From a virus (taxonomy: Duplodnaviria; Caudoviricetes), in the IMG/VR virus record IMGVR_UViG_3300014204_000004, positions 1 to 64,000 of that record: DNA of 64,000 bases. One strand, 5' to 3'. A program made the position numbers and the translations under genes. Positions 10,797 through 51,683 of this stretch are shown here, in pieces. Numbering within the stretch: position 1 is the first letter of the stretch; each line of letters begins with the position of its first letter. The notes below the pieces were generated by a model. The model was not told where the DNA came from, made no database searches, and saw only the letters and a program-made list of their open reading frames with translations.

Positions 10797-11078
10797 TTAT
10801 AACCACTCTCGTCTTAGATTGGGTGGTGCATCCCATGTAGTTATACGCGTATTAAACTTTCTTCGCAGTTCTGTTACAAAGGCGTTCAGTTCCGCTATGT
10901 TGTTGAACTGCGCGTCAATGTGGCGCAACTGACCACCTTTCAGTCTTGAGTATATGAGTATCATATGTGGGTGAGTGAAGTGTACGTCTACACCAATGTT
11001 AACAAGGTCTTTTATCTCTGACTCAAGACTGTCTATACCTAACCACGCTCTTAGCCTTTTCTTTAACCAGTTCTTCAT
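10797..11078 (-). CDS. Hypothetical protein
   Basis: Start MKNWL with GAGGAG RBS overlaps the stop of the SbcC-like gene. Confidence 0.55.
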   Translation of the reverse strand: MKNWLKKRLRAWLGIDSLESEIKDLVNIGVDVHFTHPHMILIYSRLKGGQLRHIDAQFNNIAELNAFVTELRRKFNTRITTWDAPPNLRREWL

Positions 11079-14507: not shown

Positions 14508-15029
14508 TCATAACCTGCAGAAGGCTGAGAAGGTAACGCCAGTACAGAGGTCTTCTAAGTCGTAAATGAATATGGGGTTCTCAAATCTGTAGCATACCAA
14601 GAGAGGTGACAGGTGTTTAACCTTTCTCTGTATGCACACAACCGGGTCTGCGCCGTTCTGTTTGGCAATGAGCATTGGTGATTTGTTGTGCCTCGTGCTT
14701 TCTTCGAGTAGCTTCTTCCAAAACGGGAGAATGGTTTGACCTGAGGTAGGCGTACCATACAGCAACGCATCCCACCTCAGGTTCTTAACGTTCTTGCACT
14801 CGATGATAAAGTCATTGATGAGGATATTGGCTTCTCTGTGACGCTCAACAGCAACAATGTCGCCCATGCCTGTCTTGACACGCTTACCCTTTTGAGAAGC
14901 AACAGTGGCACGCCCACCACTGGTAGCACTACGCCACAACAGGTCGTCGTGTTGATTACGACTGACCCATAATGATAGCGCCTTTGCTACCACTCTCTCG
15001 AACGCTCCACCTTTTCTCTTCGGGTTCAT
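14508..15029 (-). CDS. Holliday junction resolvase (PD-(D/E)xK, T5 D14/Hjc-like)
   Basis: KRKGGAFER.VA..L...RS..SGG...GDI...IECK. Confidence 0.85.
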   Translation of the reverse strand: MNPKRKGGAFERVVAKALSLWVSRNQHDDLLWRSATSGGRATVASQKGKRVKTGMGDIVAVERHREANILINDFIIECKNVKNLRWDALLYGTPTSGQTILPFWKKLLEESTRHNKSPMLIAKQNGADPVVCIQRKVKHLSPLLVCYRFENPIFIYDLEDLCTGVTFSAFCRL

Positions 15030-15032
15030 GTG

Positions 15033-15266
15033 TTACCTCTCTATGATTTCGTATTTGATTGAGTCTTTTGGTATGTTGTGTGCGATGTGATTTGCGACAG
15101 TGGCTTCGATTACCGCTCTCTGTGCTGTATCAGAGAGGTCTTCGTAAGGTGTGCCGTTGTCATCTGCCATGTTCTTGGGGTCTATTACAACCTCGCCCTC
15201 GGCTTTGATGCTGAAGACTGAGATGTGACCATCTAATGTTTCGTCAATCGAAAACTTTACGACCAT
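15033..15266 (-). CDS. Hypothetical protein
   Basis: AGGAGG RBS; 77 aa. Confidence 0.55.
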   Translation of the reverse strand: MVVKFSIDETLDGHISVFSIKAEGEVVIDPKNMADDNGTPYEDLSDTAQRAVIEATVANHIAHNIPKDSIKYEIIER

Positions 15267-15294: not shown

Positions 15295-16461
15295 TTATCC
15301 CTTGATTACTGCCAGTGGTGTAAGCTCATGCAGTATCTCTACGAGGTCAGATTGCTGTGCCATGACATCCTTGATATCTTTGTAGGCTCCCGTAGCTTCA
15401 TCGAGGTCCGCAACTTCCCTGATGCCATGAACAATTCCCTGGTCATCAAGCCTCTTGATTTCTTCCTCAAGATTCAGTTCCCTTGTCGCCTGCTTTCTAC
15501 CCATGCACCTGCCGGCTCCGTGAGAACAGCTATTGAAGCTCTCTTTGTTGCCCTTCCCCTTGACGATGTAGCTCTTTGTACCCTGTGAACCAGGGATTAT
15601 GCCTGTGTTGTCTTCTCCTGCGAAGGTGGCCCCTTTTCGGTGAACAAGGACGTTCTCACCATAGTGGTGTTCCATTCTTGCGTAGTTATGGGCTATGTTA
15701 ATCATGAAGCCGAAAGATACATAAGGAAAAAGTTCTTGAAAGATATTCTGAATTCTCCCCATCATCAATTTCCTGTTGGCAAAAGCAAAGGCAACGCAGT
15801 ACTTCATTTCCGTCATATACTCTTTATACTCAGGGGTATCCATTGGAAGAAATGCCAATTCCCAACTCTTAGGAATTGAAGAGTACCACCTCTCATTCAG
15901 CTCTACAGCCAGTTTGTTATAATGGTCTGCTACTTTCTTTCCAAGATTTCTGCTCCCGGAATGAATCATTATCCAAATACAGTCATCCGAGCCTTTCTGA
16001 ATTTCAATGAAGTGATTCCCACCACCTAGTGTGCCGAGTTGATGCAGTGCAGACTCATACTGCTGACCAACAATAGAATGATAGAAATGCAAACCATCTG
16101 TACAAGGCATGAGGTCGTTATCCTGAGCATCTTTTTGATGGTTAAACCCCACCGGAATTACTCGCTGTATCTTAAACACAAGTTTCTCAAGGAAATCTTT
16201 GGAGATATGAAGCAGAGAAGTCTTAACAGCACACATCCCACAACCGATATCCACACCAACTGCATTGGGAATAACTACCCCTCTGGTAGTCAAAACGCCA
16301 CCAATGGGCATACCATAACCCTGATGACAGTCTGGCATAATTGCTACATGCTTGAAGACGAATGGCAGGTTAGCCAGATTCTTAGCCTGCGCCTCTGCTC
16401 CTTCTTCAATATCTTCAAGCCACATTTTAATGGGAACCTTCTCTGATGCAATGACTCTCAT
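15295..16461 (-). CDS. rtcB: RtcB RNA 3'-phosphate/5'-OH ligase
   Basis: MPDCHQGYGMPIGG, VGVDIGCG, GTLGGGNHFIE, HSGSR, HNY, HRKGAT and SHGAGR motifs. Confidence 0.97.
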   Translation of the reverse strand: MRVIASEKVPIKMWLEDIEEGAEAQAKNLANLPFVFKHVAIMPDCHQGYGMPIGGVLTTRGVVIPNAVGVDIGCGMCAVKTSLLHISKDFLEKLVFKIQRVIPVGFNHQKDAQDNDLMPCTDGLHFYHSIVGQQYESALHQLGTLGGGNHFIEIQKGSDDCIWIMIHSGSRNLGKKVADHYNKLAVELNERWYSSIPKSWELAFLPMDTPEYKEYMTEMKYCVAFAFANRKLMMGRIQNIFQELFPYVSFGFMINIAHNYARMEHHYGENVLVHRKGATFAGEDNTGIIPGSQGTKSYIVKGKGNKESFNSCSHGAGRCMGRKQATRELNLEEEIKRLDDQGIVHGIREVADLDEATGAYKDIKDVMAQQSDLVEILHELTPLAVIKG

Positions 16462-16507
16462 TCAACCCATCCTTTCATAGTAATCTTGGTTGCAGGCTAA
16501 AATATGA

Positions 16508-16629
16508 GGGGCAGAGAGTGTTTACTTCGAGTCTTGTACCAGAGACTCTTTTCAACGCCTACACGCTAACCTGGATACTGACGAATCGTATGCCGACCCG
16601 CCCGTCATAGTCAGAAGCTTCTCTGCCCC
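16508..16629 (-). ncRNA. Structured RNA candidate B (about 122 nt)
   Basis: Closing stem GGGGCAGAGA/TCTCTGCCCC; internal CTGAC/GTCAG, TATG/CATA and GAGTCT/AGACTC stems; no ORF. Confidence 0.55.
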
Positions 16630-16641
16630 GTCTTGTTTTGT

Positions 16642-16818
16642 GGGCACGAGTCTGAGCCTTTCAGCTACACGATATAACCGGCATGCGTAGCCTCCATGAA
16701 GTGCAAACGTTCATAAGAGTATCGCCCTAGCCTTATTAGGCACTCTTACACTGGACTTTAACTTGTTCTCACCAGTCTCACTATCGCTCAGGGGTCATGG
16801 TGCCCTTTACTCGTGCCC
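16642..16818 (-). ncRNA. Structured multi-branch RNA candidate A (about 177 nt)
   Basis: Closing stem GGGCACGAGT/ACTCGTGCCC; CTGAGC/GCTCAG, ACTGG/CCAGT, TAAGAGT/ACTCTTA and GCTAC/GTAGC stems; A-rich linkers on both sides. Confidence 0.6.
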
Positions 16819-16829
16819 TTTATTCTTTG

Positions 16830-16944
16830 AGACAGAGGCGAGGATTTGAACCCCGCATGACCCTAGACTTATGTGCTCCAGTTTACTGGCGTCGAACTTG
16901 GTCTTACTGGAGTCTATAGCGTCTACCCATTCCGCCACCCTGCC
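16830..16944 (-). tRNA. tRNA-like RNA with an insertion of about 36 nt in the anticodon loop (identity ambiguous)
   Basis: Acceptor GGCAGGG/CTCTGTC; D-arm GCG-GAATGGGTAGA-CGC; stem TAGAC/GTCTA; T-arm GCGGGG-TTCAAAT-CCTCGC; inserted CTCCAGT/ACTGGAG hairpin. Confidence 0.7.
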
Positions 16945-16952
16945 ATTACCTC

Positions 16953-17966
16953 TTAATACTTGCTGTAACTTGGTAAGAAGCCTGTTTCAATCTCTTTCCA
17001 TCTATTACGAACCAGTCTCGATATCTTTGACTTCATTCTGTTGTCGCTCTCTGCCTTAATGCGCTCAGACTCTTTAGCCATTGTGCGCGGTGACAGGCCG
17101 AGTTCGTCAAGAGCATCGATTGATTTGAGCCACTCAAGACAGGCGGTAACATCGTCTATGCCATAACCGAACATGATTGGGAACTGACATTCTCTGAAGG
17201 GCAGTGATATCTTGTTCTTCTCGCAACGTGCTTTGATATCAACGCCTACGTTTCTCTTGACCTTGTCCATGACTCTGTAAAGTTTTTCCATTTCGCTGAG
17301 CCACAATACTTGCGAGGTGTAGAAGTCAAGAGCTTTGCCACCGGTACGTCTGTACTTCTTGCCGAAGGTGACACCAATGTTGTCACGAACCTGCGATATG
17401 ATAATGAATAGTAACCGCGTTCTCGCTATGTCATTGGTAAGACGCCTGAACATTTCAGAACTCGTCTTTGCCTTATCCATCTTGTAAGAGCCTTCGTCTA
17501 TCTTACGTTTCTTTTCTTCTCTGGTAGATAGTGAATCCAGCGAATCGACAATGAATATGCCAGGCTCGTCACCTTTTTGCTTGATAACACTGCTCATGAC
17601 CTCAAATAGAAACTCCATCGTGCCGTCGTTTGTAGTGTCTTCAAAGTCATCTGTGGTGAAGGTGACGTTTTCGATTGGTAGCCCAAGTGCTTGTGCGTAC
17701 CCTTTGTCAAAGGCAGATTCAGCCTCGTGATAGTAAGCGTTGCCCATAGGGTACTTACGTAAGAAGTTGATGATTGCTTCGATGGCAAGCAAAGTCTTGC
17801 CTGTTGACTTGTCACCTACTATGTTGACGACGCGACCTATTGGATAGCCCCCACCAAGTACGCAATCGAGAAGAGTAGAACCACTGGAGATTAACTCCAG
17901 TGGCTTATCTTCTACGAAGTAGTTGCCAAGCTTTACTGCTTCTTGACCTCTACGCCGGCGTTCCAT
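16953..17966 (-). CDS. recA: RecA/UvsX recombinase
   Basis: ISSGSTLLD..LGGGYPIGR, Walker A GDKSTGKT, IVDSL, SQVR, TGGKAL.FY and KNK motifs. Confidence 0.93.
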   Translation of the reverse strand: MERRRRGQEAVKLGNYFVEDKPLELISSGSTLLDCVLGGGYPIGRVVNIVGDKSTGKTLLAIEAIINFLRKYPMGNAYYHEAESAFDKGYAQALGLPIENVTFTTDDFEDTTNDGTMEFLFEVMSSVIKQKGDEPGIFIVDSLDSLSTREEKKRKIDEGSYKMDKAKTSSEMFRRLTNDIARTRLLFIIISQVRDNIGVTFGKKYRRTGGKALDFYTSQVLWLSEMEKLYRVMDKVKRNVGVDIKARCEKNKISLPFRECQFPIMFGYGIDDVTACLEWLKSIDALDELGLSPRTMAKESERIKAESDNRMKSKISRLVRNRWKEIETGFLPSYSKY

Positions 17967-29995: not shown

Positions 29996-30120
29996 AGGGG
30001 CCGCTCATAAGGGGTGAGGACTCGAACCTCACAGTGATGAAGACAAGTGTGACTCCCCTTCATTCGGTAGTCCGGACTACTGCGTTCGCCCCTTCGCTAC
30101 CCTCATGAGCATTGGCCCCT
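29996..30120 (-). ncRNA. tRNA-like RNA without an anticodon loop, with an extended acceptor stem
   Basis: Acceptor ATGAGGG/CCCTTAT extended by GCTC/GAGC and AGGGGCC/GGCCCCT; D-arm GCG-AAGGGGCGAA-CGC; GTAGT-CCGG-ACTAC; long variable arm; T-arm GTGAGG-TTCGAGT-CCTCAC. Confidence 0.7.
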
Positions 30121-33161: not shown

Positions 33162-33262
33162 GCGTACTCAAGGCTGGCTGTTAACCTGATACTGTTGTCC
33201 CACCGGCAAGTAAGTAATAGGGGCGGGTGGGGGTTATGACAACTGTATCACCTTGAGTACGC
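33162..33262 (-). ncRNA. Rod-like hairpin RNA / cis element (about 100 nt)
   Basis: GCGTACTCAAGG/CCTTGAGTACGC (12 bp) plus TGATAC/GTATCA, GTTGTC/GACAAC and CCACC/GGTGG stems. Confidence 0.55.
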
Positions 33263-42996: not shown

Positions 42997-43185
42997 TTAC
43001 ATGAGGTCTGTGACAGTGCTCAGTATCAGACAAGTGGTACACAGACCCTCGCCTTCGCTGACAAGTGCACCACATCTTGGGCACACCACATCTTCACAGA
43101 CCTCTGCCTCTTCATTAATACTCTCGTCATCAAGAAGGCTTGATTTCATCTTGTCTGGGTATGTGTAGTCCCGTGACATTTTCAA
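42997..43185 (-). CDS. Small zinc-ribbon protein
   Basis: CPRCG...LCTTC. Confidence 0.5.
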   Translation of the reverse strand: MKMSRDYTYPDKMKSSLLDDESINEEAEVCEDVVCPRCGALVSEGEGLCTTCLILSTVTDLM

Positions 43186-51324: not shown

Positions 51325-51605
51325 CACGTGGTACCACCACAGCCAGTAAAGACTTTACCTCACCTCCTTAACGATTACACTACAACACAATACCGTAACT
51401 ACTCTGTGCATAACCTCAGCAGAACATCGCATTGCCAAAACTGTGCCTTGCTATTCATTACCTTAGCCGAACTGTTACTTAACCTTCACTTTACTTTATC
51501 CACTAAACATAACAAAAGGAGAAAACAAACGCTCTCACTTTACCGCTAGTGAATAACTTTGCAAGAGGAGAATTACGAACACCATTACACTACCAAACTT
51601 TACAA
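51325..51605 (-). ncRNA. Second pentamer-periodic array upstream of the RAMP gene
   Basis: tgtgc ataac ctcagc agaac atcgc attgc caaaac tgtgc cttgc tattc attac cttagc cgaac...: same 5/6-nt grammar as the downstream array. Confidence 0.7.
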
Positions 51606-51683
51606 TGGAGGTGTTGATATGAAAAACTAAACAGGCGATACTGTTACTTTGCTCTCCTCTTGCATTATGTATTACACATCATA

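What the first reader, a model, noticed from the sequence alone, without database searches (positions are those of the whole stretch)
16508..16944. Three tandem structured RNAs between recA and rtcB
Seen in sequence: the 490-bp recA-rtcB gap is fully tiled on - by a tRNA-like RNA (16830-944), a 177-nt multibranch RNA (16642-818) and a 122-nt RNA (16508-629). The last two are each closed by a perfect 10-bp terminal stem, and the three are separated by short A-rich linkers (AAAGAATAAA, ACAAAACAA). Established knowledge: RtcB ligates 2',3'-cyclic-phosphate or 3'-P ends to 5'-OH ends. Inference: a polycistronic precursor is cut at the linkers into RNAs with juxtaposed ends that may be RtcB substrates (splicing, circularisation or repair) or decoys for host anticodon nucleases.
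Basis: partly seen in the sequence, partly recalled or inferred. Interest (0 to 1): 0.75.

Follow-up and report, generated by a model that had tools for sequence, protein, structure and literature searches.

The report
Phage small-RNA island beside RtcB ligase
The gene-free stretch in front of this phage's RNA-ligase gene holds three small folded RNAs: one is a non-decoding leucine-tRNA look-alike of a kind common in phages (phage T5's RNA1 is a relative), and two have no known relatives, so this adds to a long-known but unexplained class of phage RNAs and is not a new system.

Summary
The 491-bp gap between a UvsX/RecA-like gene and an intact rtcB has no credible ORF. On the minus strand it is tiled by a 115-nt tRNA-shaped RNA, a 177-nt RNA and a 122-nt RNA. 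The last two are each closed by a perfect 10-bp stem (two such stems in 1 of 3000 shuffles).

The first RNA is not a decoding tRNA. It is a strong member (69 bits) of a phage-enriched family I assembled here, built on a leucine-tRNA frame: 7-bp acceptor stem, tRNA-Leu D arm, 6-bp T stem, and a variable 41-83-nt cargo in place of the anticodon and variable arms. Phage T5's annotated "RNA1, tRNA-like stable RNA with unknown functions" also matches the model.

The other two RNAs resemble T5/T4 stable RNAs in layout only. I found no homologue.

Three relatives have recA followed by a PDDEXK nuclease gene. The RNAs, rtcB and a 77-aa ORF therefore form one inserted block here. But only 2 of 27 phage records with such tRNA-Leu-framed RNAs encode RtcB, and five RtcB-bearing relatives lack them. 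The RtcB-substrate or circle idea is thus untested and has no family-level support.

Earlier notes of this scan describe the same kind of RNA in other phages.

The parts
16830..16944 (-). RNA 1: tRNA-Leu-framed, non-decoding RNA (115 nt). Acceptor stem 16944-16938 with 16837-16831, discriminator U at 16830, D arm 16935-16919, cargo 16918-16857 (62 nt), 6-bp T stem with UUCAAAU loop 16856-16838.
   Evidence: Read by hand. Family model R3, built from 13 other phage RNAs, scores it 69.4 bits over the full length. The script finds a 7/7 acceptor stem and a 6-bp T stem. Default ARAGORN and Rfam find nothing. Relaxed ARAGORN calls it tRNA-Met(CAU) with a 36-nt intron.
16819..16829 (-). Linker 1 (11 nt, A-rich).
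16642..16818 (-). RNA 2: 177-nt multibranch RNA closed by a perfect 10-bp stem (GGGCACGAGU with ACUCGUGCCC). No relative found.
   Evidence: In the source metagenome, extra contig depth is confined to 16645-16824, a hint of a look-alike in another context. No relative was found in any search.
16630..16641 (-). Linker 2 (12 nt, ACAAAACAAGAC).
16508..16629 (-). RNA 3: 122-nt RNA. A 10-bp terminal stem plus a 5-bp stem lead to a junction with three hairpins. No relative found.
   Evidence: (z -3.8). No relative was found.
16462..16507 (-). rtcB leader with a Shine-Dalgarno-like AGGA about 9 nt before the ATG.
15295..16461 (-). rtcB, intact 3'-phosphate/5'-hydroxyl RNA ligase.
   Evidence: Pfam PF01139, E 3e-112, and PHROG tRNA splicing ligase. 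The alignment to P. horikoshii RtcB keeps the conserved blocks PD.HQGYG, the C of GCG, GGNHF, HSGSR, AHN and SCSHGAGR. My recall that these hold the metal and guanylate ligands is from memory.
15033..15266 (-). 77-aa ORF of unknown function, probably part of the same insertion.
   Evidence: No Pfam or PHROG match. Not found by tblastn in L013, L015 or L016.
16953..17966 (-). UvsX/RecA-like recombinase; upstream border of the insertion.
14508..15029 (-). PDDEXK/RusA-like nuclease; downstream border of the insertion.

Best explanation
The gap is a small-RNA island of the kind long known, and still unexplained, in the tRNA regions of phages T4 and T5. It is most likely transcribed with recA and rtcB and then cut into three stable RNAs. 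RNA 1 is a leucine-tRNA 'scaffold'. It keeps the acceptor stem, D arm and T arm, which host RNase P, 3'-end nucleases and probably modification enzymes recognise. Its anticodon and variable arms are replaced by a 62-nt cargo arm, so it cannot decode. The frame would give processing and stability, and the cargo would carry the unknown activity. RNAs 2 and 3 are unrelated folded RNAs whose 5' and 3' ends are locked in GC-rich 10-bp helices, which would protect them from exonucleases. Shown here: the RNAs' existence in the sequence, the family membership of RNA 1, and the block's status as an insertion carrying rtcB. Inferred: co-transcription, processing by host tRNA enzymes, stability, and any role in conflict with host RNA-targeting defences.
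For: An exact 18-nt D-arm scan of IMG/VR gave 50 loci. Of 47 usable copies, 31 are not canonical tRNAs, against 28 of 123 in bacterial genomes, where most of the 28 are fragments or intron-bearing tRNA-Leu. At least 13 viral copies share a 7-bp acceptor stem, the same D arm, a 41-83-nt cargo that nearly always ends in AU, and a 6-bp T stem. Their stems covary: 10 of 16 pairs change on both sides, and covariation is 0.70 against 0.19 in shuffles. These members were picked by a pairing filter, so the 99% paired figure is partly built in. A model made from them scores RNA 1 at 69.4 bits and T5 RNA1 at 33.8 bits. T5 is annotated with tandem stable RNAs of 103-172 nt, two of them 'tRNA-like', all of unknown function. 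Several fold with long terminal stems, and T4 has rnaC and rnaD. No promoter or terminator was found in the gap on the gene strand. The insertion is shown by synteny in L013, L015 and L016.
Against: There is no expression data, because no RNA run is listed for this phage. RNAs 2 and 3 have no homologue, so their folds rest on thermodynamics and the terminal stems alone. The cargo fold of RNA 1 is ambiguous. This phage has no canonical tRNA at all, unlike T4 and T5, where such RNAs sit among real tRNAs. Host tRNA-enzyme processing is inferred only from shape. The discriminator base varies in the family, so charging by LeuRS is doubtful.
Confidence: 0.6

Rival explanations
1. This is an RtcB-coupled cassette. 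The RNAs are produced or damaged with 2',3'-cyclic-phosphate and 5'-OH ends, for example by host anticodon nucleases or other metal-independent RNases. The neighbouring RtcB then seals them, repairs them after they act as decoys, or circularises them across their juxtaposed ends.
For: The RNAs, rtcB and orf77 form one block that is absent from three syntenic relatives. RtcB keeps the conserved sequence blocks seen in solved RtcB structures. Other phage rtcB genes abut RNA genes: a tRNA-Met starts within the rtcB stop codon in L001, a tRNA-Pro starts 1 nt after it in L007, and a 134-nt structured element follows rtcB in L002. All three RNAs bring their ends together in a helix.
Against: Only 2 of 27 records with tRNA-Leu-framed RNAs encode RtcB, in neither was it in the stretch around the RNA, and 0 of the 7 records that are at least 90% complete have it. 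Five RtcB-bearing relatives have no framed RNA. No nuclease that makes such ends, no archease and no ribozyme was found. The linkers carry no bulge-helix-bulge motif.
Confidence: 0.12
2. RNA 1 is a real tRNA-Met/Ile(CAU) precursor with a 36-nt intron in the anticodon loop, and RtcB rejoins its halves.
For: Relaxed ARAGORN with introns calls tRNA-Met(CAU), intron 36 nt. The sequence CACAUAA lies next to a 5-bp stem. L001 has a canonical tRNA-Met(CAU) right after rtcB.
Against: The call appears only at a lowered threshold, which also gives spurious calls. The spliced loop would lack U33. The T stem has 6 bp, giving 13 stacked pairs. The frame is that of tRNA-Leu, not tRNA-Met. Family cargos of 41-83 nt share no anticodon loop. 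There is no EndA and no bulge-helix-bulge motif. The genome has no other tRNA.
Confidence: 0.05
3. The RNAs are Y-RNA-like partners of a Ro60-type protein, as in the Salmonella rsr-yrlBA-rtcBA operon.
For: Structured RNAs with paired ends lie directly upstream of rtcB. YrlA also contains a tRNA-like module (PMC4201824).
Against: There is no TROVE/Ro60 gene in the complete genome and no Rfam match at E<=10. RNA 1 has open acceptor ends, not the permuted YrlA layout. An ACAGCAA handle motif, reported in earlier notes of this scan for other phage Y-like RNAs, is absent from the three RNAs on the RNA strand.
Confidence: 0.05
4. RNAs 2 and 3 are not free RNAs. They are cis elements: a structured leader that controls rtcB translation or mRNA stability, or DNA-level inverted-repeat (MITE-like) insertions.
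For: They lie between two co-oriented genes with no promoter or terminator. The phage has other intergenic elements of about 100 nt with 11-13-bp terminal repeats. A look-alike of RNA 2 seems to sit in another context in the same metagenome.
Against: The elements share no sequence with one another, so they are not a repeat family. There are no target-site duplications. The minus strand folds are clearly more stable than the plus strand folds. The tiling right after a tRNA-shaped RNA matches the T5 arrays of free stable RNAs.
Confidence: 0.15

Closest known systems
Phage T5 RNA1 and RNA2 ('tRNA-like stable RNA with unknown functions', AY543070 30501-30644 and 32959-33083)
   Same: RNA1 has a tRNA-Leu-type D arm, a T arm and an acceptor stem, with an enlarged middle that cannot decode. 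It matches the family model at 33.8 bits. It sits in tandem with other stable RNAs.
   Different: T5 RNA1 has a 5-bp T stem and keeps a variable arm. T5 carries many real tRNAs around it and no adjacent rtcB. The window RNA has a 6-bp T stem, only AU before it, and no true tRNA anywhere in the genome.
T5 RNAI, RNAIII, RNAIV and RNA2H, and T4 rnaC and rnaD (species 1 and 2 RNAs)
   Same: They are stable RNAs of 103-172 nt and unknown function, packed head to tail next to tRNA-like genes. Several are predicted to close with 8-12-bp terminal stems, and RNA2H is 172 nt and multibranch.
   Different: They have no sequence similarity to the 177- and 122-nt RNAs. The likeness is in layout only.
Salmonella rsr-yrlBA-rtcBA operon (Y RNAs YrlA/YrlB with Ro60; PMC4201824, PMC7790460)
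   Same: Small structured RNAs, one with a tRNA-like module, are encoded directly upstream of rtcB.
   Different: There is no Ro60 here. YrlA is a permuted tRNA mimic with its ends in the Ro-binding stem, whereas RNA 1 has ordinary acceptor ends. No model match was found.
Engineered 'tRNA scaffold' for expressing recombinant RNAs in E. coli (recalled from memory as Ponchon and Dardel 2007; not checked here)
   Same: A cargo RNA replaces the anticodon arm of a tRNA, so that the host processes and stabilises it.
   Different: That is an artificial design. Here the arrangement is natural and the cargo's function is unknown.

Membership tests
Canonical decoding tRNA (Rfam RF00005) | Detected as a cloverleaf by tRNA finders and the Rfam model | tested here: not met
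   Default ARAGORN finds 0 genes. Rfam finds nothing at gathering score or at E<=10. RF00005 is not found in the whole genome.
Canonical decoding tRNA (Rfam RF00005) | 7-nt anticodon loop on a 5-bp stem, and 7+5 = 12 stacked acceptor/T pairs | tested here: not met
   A 62-nt cargo sits between the D arm and the T arm. The T stem has 6 bp, giving 7+6.
Phage tRNA-Leu-framed non-decoding RNAs (family assembled here; T5 RNA1 is a relative) | 7-bp acceptor stem, U8, and a tRNA-Leu D arm containing the 18-mer GGCGGAAUGGGUAGACGC | tested here: met
Phage tRNA-Leu-framed non-decoding RNAs (family assembled here; T5 RNA1 is a relative) | Cargo of tens of nt ending in AU, followed by a 6-bp T stem with a UUCRAAU loop | tested here: met
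   The cargo is 62 nt and ends in CAU. The T stem is GCGGGG/CCUCGC with loop UUCAAAU.
Phage tRNA-Leu-framed non-decoding RNAs (family assembled here; T5 RNA1 is a relative) | High score against a covariance model built without it | tested here: met
   It scores 69.4 bits, E 6e-17, over the full length. Canonical tRNA-Leu genes score about 40-53 bits. The shared 18-mer was used to collect the family, so it inflates all scores.
T5/T4 stable RNAs other than the tRNA-like ones (RNAI, III, IV, 2H; rnaC, rnaD) | Sequence or model homology | tested here: not met
   blastn finds only 7-9-nt chance matches. Models R1 and R2 find nothing in L074 or L075.
YrlA/YrlB Y RNAs | A Ro60 (TROVE) gene in the genome, usually adjacent | tested here: not met
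   PF05731 is absent from the complete 103.7-kb genome.
YrlA/YrlB Y RNAs | A permuted tRNA module on a Ro-binding terminal stem | tested here: not met
   RNA 1 has open acceptor ends. RNAs 2 and 3 have no T loop or D loop. No Rfam match was found.
Enzyme-spliced pre-tRNA (archaeal/eukaryal type) | A bulge-helix-bulge motif at the intron borders and a splicing endonuclease | tested here: not met
   No bulge-helix-bulge motif is seen in the sequence. PF01974 is absent.
Small self-cleaving ribozymes (hammerhead, twister, pistol, hatchet, HDV-like) | A match to the family models | tested here: not met
   No such family appears at E<=10 in 16350-17100. Theta-type minimal HDV-like ribozymes may not be in Rfam, and I checked them only by eye.

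The most novel reading that the evidence does not exclude
The three RNAs and RtcB work as one mobile cassette. The RNAs are sacrificial targets for, or products of, an RNase that leaves cyclic-phosphate ends, and RtcB reseals or circularises them across their paired termini. This would give a phage without any tRNA gene a renewable decoy against host tRNA-cutting defences.
Probability: 0.12. Interest if true: 0.8.

Novelty: new member of a known kind. Interest (0 to 1): 0.48.

Why it matters
The small stable RNAs of T4 and T5 have had no assigned function since the 1970s. This locus adds a clean case: a complete phage genome with no real tRNA, one leucine-tRNA-framed RNA and two orphan RNAs, all inside a 1.9-kb insertion that also brought an RNA ligase. 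The scans done here also show that the leucine-tRNA frame with exchangeable cargo is common in uncultivated phages and rare in bacteria. I found it in no Rfam family or paper searched. A short cassette like this is easy to clone, so processing, end chemistry and dependence on RtcB can be tested directly.

Tried and rejected
The closest relatives (RtcB 75-79%, RecA 78-80%, Logan contigs) therefore could not be fetched, and no covariation test of RNAs 2 and 3 was possible.
- No RNA holder is listed among the sequencing runs. Laying the contigs showed no joints in the RNA region.
- blastn against GenBank phages and plasmids found no match.
- The RNAs translated as pseudo-proteins, to exploit degenerate pattern scans, gave nothing real. 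The single hit, L023, proved spurious on alignment.
- Exact DNA words of RNA 2 and RNA 3 in IMG/VR gave 0 hits and one chance hit, L079.
- Single-sequence covariance models R1 and R2 found only themselves in 572 kb of loci and in five relatives' records.
- There are no paralogues in the genome and no shared motif among the phage's terminal-stem elements beyond chance.
- A 26-nt word of RNA 1 in bacterial genomes gave 0 hits.
- The 18-mer occurs in tRNA-Leu of many phyla, so it gives no clue to the host.
- I looked by eye for RNase P RNA, 6S, HDV-like and hammerhead cores and found none convincing.

Full report
**Setting.** The window is the first 64 kb of a complete 103.7-kb IMG/VR phage genome with direct terminal repeats. 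It was assembled from a landfill metagenome, and identical fragments occur at low depth in a groundwater run. Around the finding all genes lie on the minus strand and form a T4-like replication and recombination block:
- a clamp-loader gene and a gp32-like gene;
- a UvsX/RecA-like gene (16953-17966);
- rtcB (15295-16461);
- a 77-aa ORF;
- a PDDEXK/RusA-like nuclease gene;
- Mre11-like and Rad50-like genes.

RtcB keeps the conserved sequence blocks of solved RtcB structures and looks active.

**Observation.** The 491-bp gap has no ORF above 43 aa. On the minus strand it reads: recA stop, 8 nt, a 115-nt RNA, 11 nt, a 177-nt RNA, 12 nt, a 122-nt RNA, then 46 nt with a ribosome-binding site and the rtcB start.
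- The 177- and 122-nt units are each closed by a perfect 10-bp helix.
- In 3000 dinucleotide-preserving shuffles of the gap, 4% show one such helix and 0.03% show two.
- Fold energies are unusual: z -3.8 for the 122-nt RNA and z -2.6 for the 177-nt RNA. Both favour the minus strand.
- The scan found no sigma-70-type promoter or intrinsic terminator in the gap on that strand.

The only correction is that the second linker is 12 nt, not 9.

**RNA 1.** Default ARAGORN, Rfam at gathering score and Rfam at E<=10 all miss it. Read by hand it has these parts:
- a 7-bp acceptor stem;
- U8 and a D arm typical of bacterial tRNA-Leu;
- a UUCAAAU T loop on a 6-bp stem;
- 62 nt where the anticodon and variable arms should be.

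Relaxed ARAGORN forces it into tRNA-Met(CAU) with a 36-nt intron. That setting also produces plainly spurious calls, the spliced loop would lack U33, and the cargo has at least two competing folds.

I scanned IMG/VR for the exact 18-nt D-arm word and obtained 50 loci.
- Sixteen of 47 usable copies are ordinary tRNAs, nearly all tRNA-Leu; 31 are not.
- In bacterial genomes the same word sits in ordinary tRNA-Leu in 95 of 123 cases. Most of the remainder are gene fragments or tRNA-Leu with group I-like introns, with a few framed RNAs such as the one in L140.
- At least 13 viral copies share one plan: a 7-bp acceptor stem of any sequence, the same D arm, a 41-83-nt cargo that nearly always ends in AU, and a 6-bp T stem.
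- On their alignment, 6 of 7 acceptor pairs and 4 of 6 T-stem pairs change on both sides. The covariation score is 0.70 against 0.19 in shuffles and at most 0.20 for slid partners.

These members passed a pairing filter, so the fraction paired is partly built in. The variety of pair types is not.

A covariance model built from the 13 members, without the window, scores RNA 1 at 69.4 bits over its full length. That is third among the matches outside the training set. T5 RNA1 scores 33.8 bits, and the window's second tRNA mimic (30006-30106) scores 23.6 bits. RNA 1 is therefore a member of a phage-enriched family of non-decoding RNAs on a tRNA-Leu frame.

**RNAs 2 and 3.** They share nothing with each other, with the rest of the genome, or with the phage's other terminal-stem elements beyond chance. 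I found no relative by any route:
- GenBank phages and plasmids;
- IMG/VR, by degenerate and exact patterns;
- the large protein collection, by pseudo-translation;
- 572 kb of fetched loci and five related records, by covariance model.

These searches are insensitive below about 90% identity, so they do not show absence. One hint of a relative exists. In the source run, extra contig depth of about 7 is confined to 16645-16824, almost exactly RNA 2, while both flanking bins stay at the depth of the single phage contig. I could not retrieve that contig.

In layout the two RNAs match T5's RNAIII, RNAI, RNAIV and RNA2H (103-172 nt, several folding with terminal stems, packed next to tRNA-like RNA1) and T4's rnaC and rnaD. 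All of these are annotated as stable RNAs of unknown function. There is no sequence similarity.

**Link to RtcB.**

*Evidence for a link:*
- Three relatives keep the backbone without rtcB and without an RNA gap: L013 (RecA 61%, PDDEXK 63%) has gp32-like, recA, PDDEXK and Mre11-like genes in order, and L015 and L016 have recA, PDDEXK and Mre11-like genes in order. The RNAs, rtcB and orf77 are therefore one block of about 1.9 kb that is present here only.
- Other phage rtcB genes also touch RNA genes. A tRNA-Met(CAU) begins within the stop codon in L001, a tRNA-Pro begins 1 nt after it in L007, and a 134-nt folded element (z -2.3) follows rtcB in L002.

*Evidence against a functional dependence:*
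- None of the 50 framed-RNA or tRNA-Leu loci carries rtcB nearby.
- Only 2 of 27 whole records encode it, in neither within the stretch around the framed RNA. None of the 7 records that are at least 90% complete has it.
- Five RtcB-bearing relatives have no framed RNA.
- The phage encodes no splicing endonuclease, archease, Ro60 or CCA-adding enzyme.
- No known ribozyme model matches.

**Reading.** The best-supported account is an RNA island transcribed with its neighbours and cut into stable RNAs. The tRNA frame of RNA 1 would recruit host RNase P and 3'-end enzymes and protect a cargo arm. The sealed ends of RNAs 2 and 3 would protect them from exonucleases. What the RNAs do is unknown. A role in conflicts over tRNA cleavage is attractive, given the ligase next door and the lack of any true tRNA, but nothing tested here shows it. 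I put about 0.6 on the processed-stable-RNA account. I put about 0.12 on a true RtcB-coupled mechanism (sealing, circles or repaired decoys), 0.15 on cis-acting or DNA-level elements for RNAs 2 and 3, and 0.05 each on a spliced tRNA-Met and on Y-RNA-like partners.

**Relation to earlier notes of this scan.** Notes found describe sealed or non-decoding leucine-tRNA look-alikes, and RNA islands beside RtcB, in other phages. They point to T5 RNA1 and RNA2 as the nearest known RNAs. I tested those leads here and they hold. The notes' point that such RNAs are not specific to ligase-bearing phages is also borne out.

**Limits.** There is no expression evidence and no close relatives. The family was collected through one exact D-arm word, so its true size and diversity are underestimated.

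Noticed in passing
window 29996-30120 (-): A second tRNA mimic. It has a type II cloverleaf with a 6-bp T stem, a 4-nt cap where the anticodon should be, and an acceptor stem extended to about 17 bp, so there is no free 3' end. Its fold z-score is -4.9, and it matches the tRNA-Leu frame model weakly (23.6 bits at 30006-30106).
   Followed up: partly
window 33162-33262, 43003-43104, 51560-51664, 10941-11031 (-): Four more intergenic elements of 91-105 nt, each closed by a perfect 11-13-bp terminal stem (z -7.1 and -3.5 for the first two). They are unrelated in sequence to one another and to the RNAs of the finding.
   Followed up: partly
L001 4155-4230; L007 1607-1680: In two phages with related RtcB (68% and 56% identity), a canonical tRNA starts within or 1 nt after the rtcB stop codon: tRNA-Met(CAU) in L001 and tRNA-Pro(UGG) in L007.
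   Followed up: partly
L002 4151-4284: A 134-nt element closed by a terminal stem lies directly downstream of rtcB in another phage (z -2.3). It resembles the window RNAs in layout only.
   Followed up: no
L140 about 1773-1885 (Lactiplantibacillus daowaiensis); also L167, L174: tRNA-Leu-framed RNAs with the 6-bp T stem also occur in a few bacterial genome records. They may lie in prophages, which I did not check.
   Followed up: no
L131 2972-3451 (Colwellia maritima): Four tandem copies of a tRNA-Leu-like gene carry the same D arm, but ARAGORN does not call them at the expected start. Their 5' acceptor strand looks unusual.
   Followed up: no
L062 627-649 and 748-770: Two tRNA-Leu-framed RNAs lie in tandem in one phage contig.
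   Followed up: no
window 16565-16573 vs 16366-16374; 16492-16500 vs 16382-16390: There are 9-nt complementarities between RNA 3 and the rtcB coding region, and between the rtcB leader and that region. Matches of this length are expected by chance (113 such pairs in the genome).
   Followed up: no
window 15295-15511 and 16316-16466: A 2022 groundwater metagenome run holds fragments identical to this phage's rtcB at low depth. The phage, or a near-identical one, therefore also occurs outside the landfill sample.
   Followed up: no
window 16830-16827, 16641-16639, 16507-16505: Each of the three RNAs is followed by one base and then CA (U-CAA, A-CAA, U-CAU). The other family members do not share this. 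It may be chance.
   Followed up: partly
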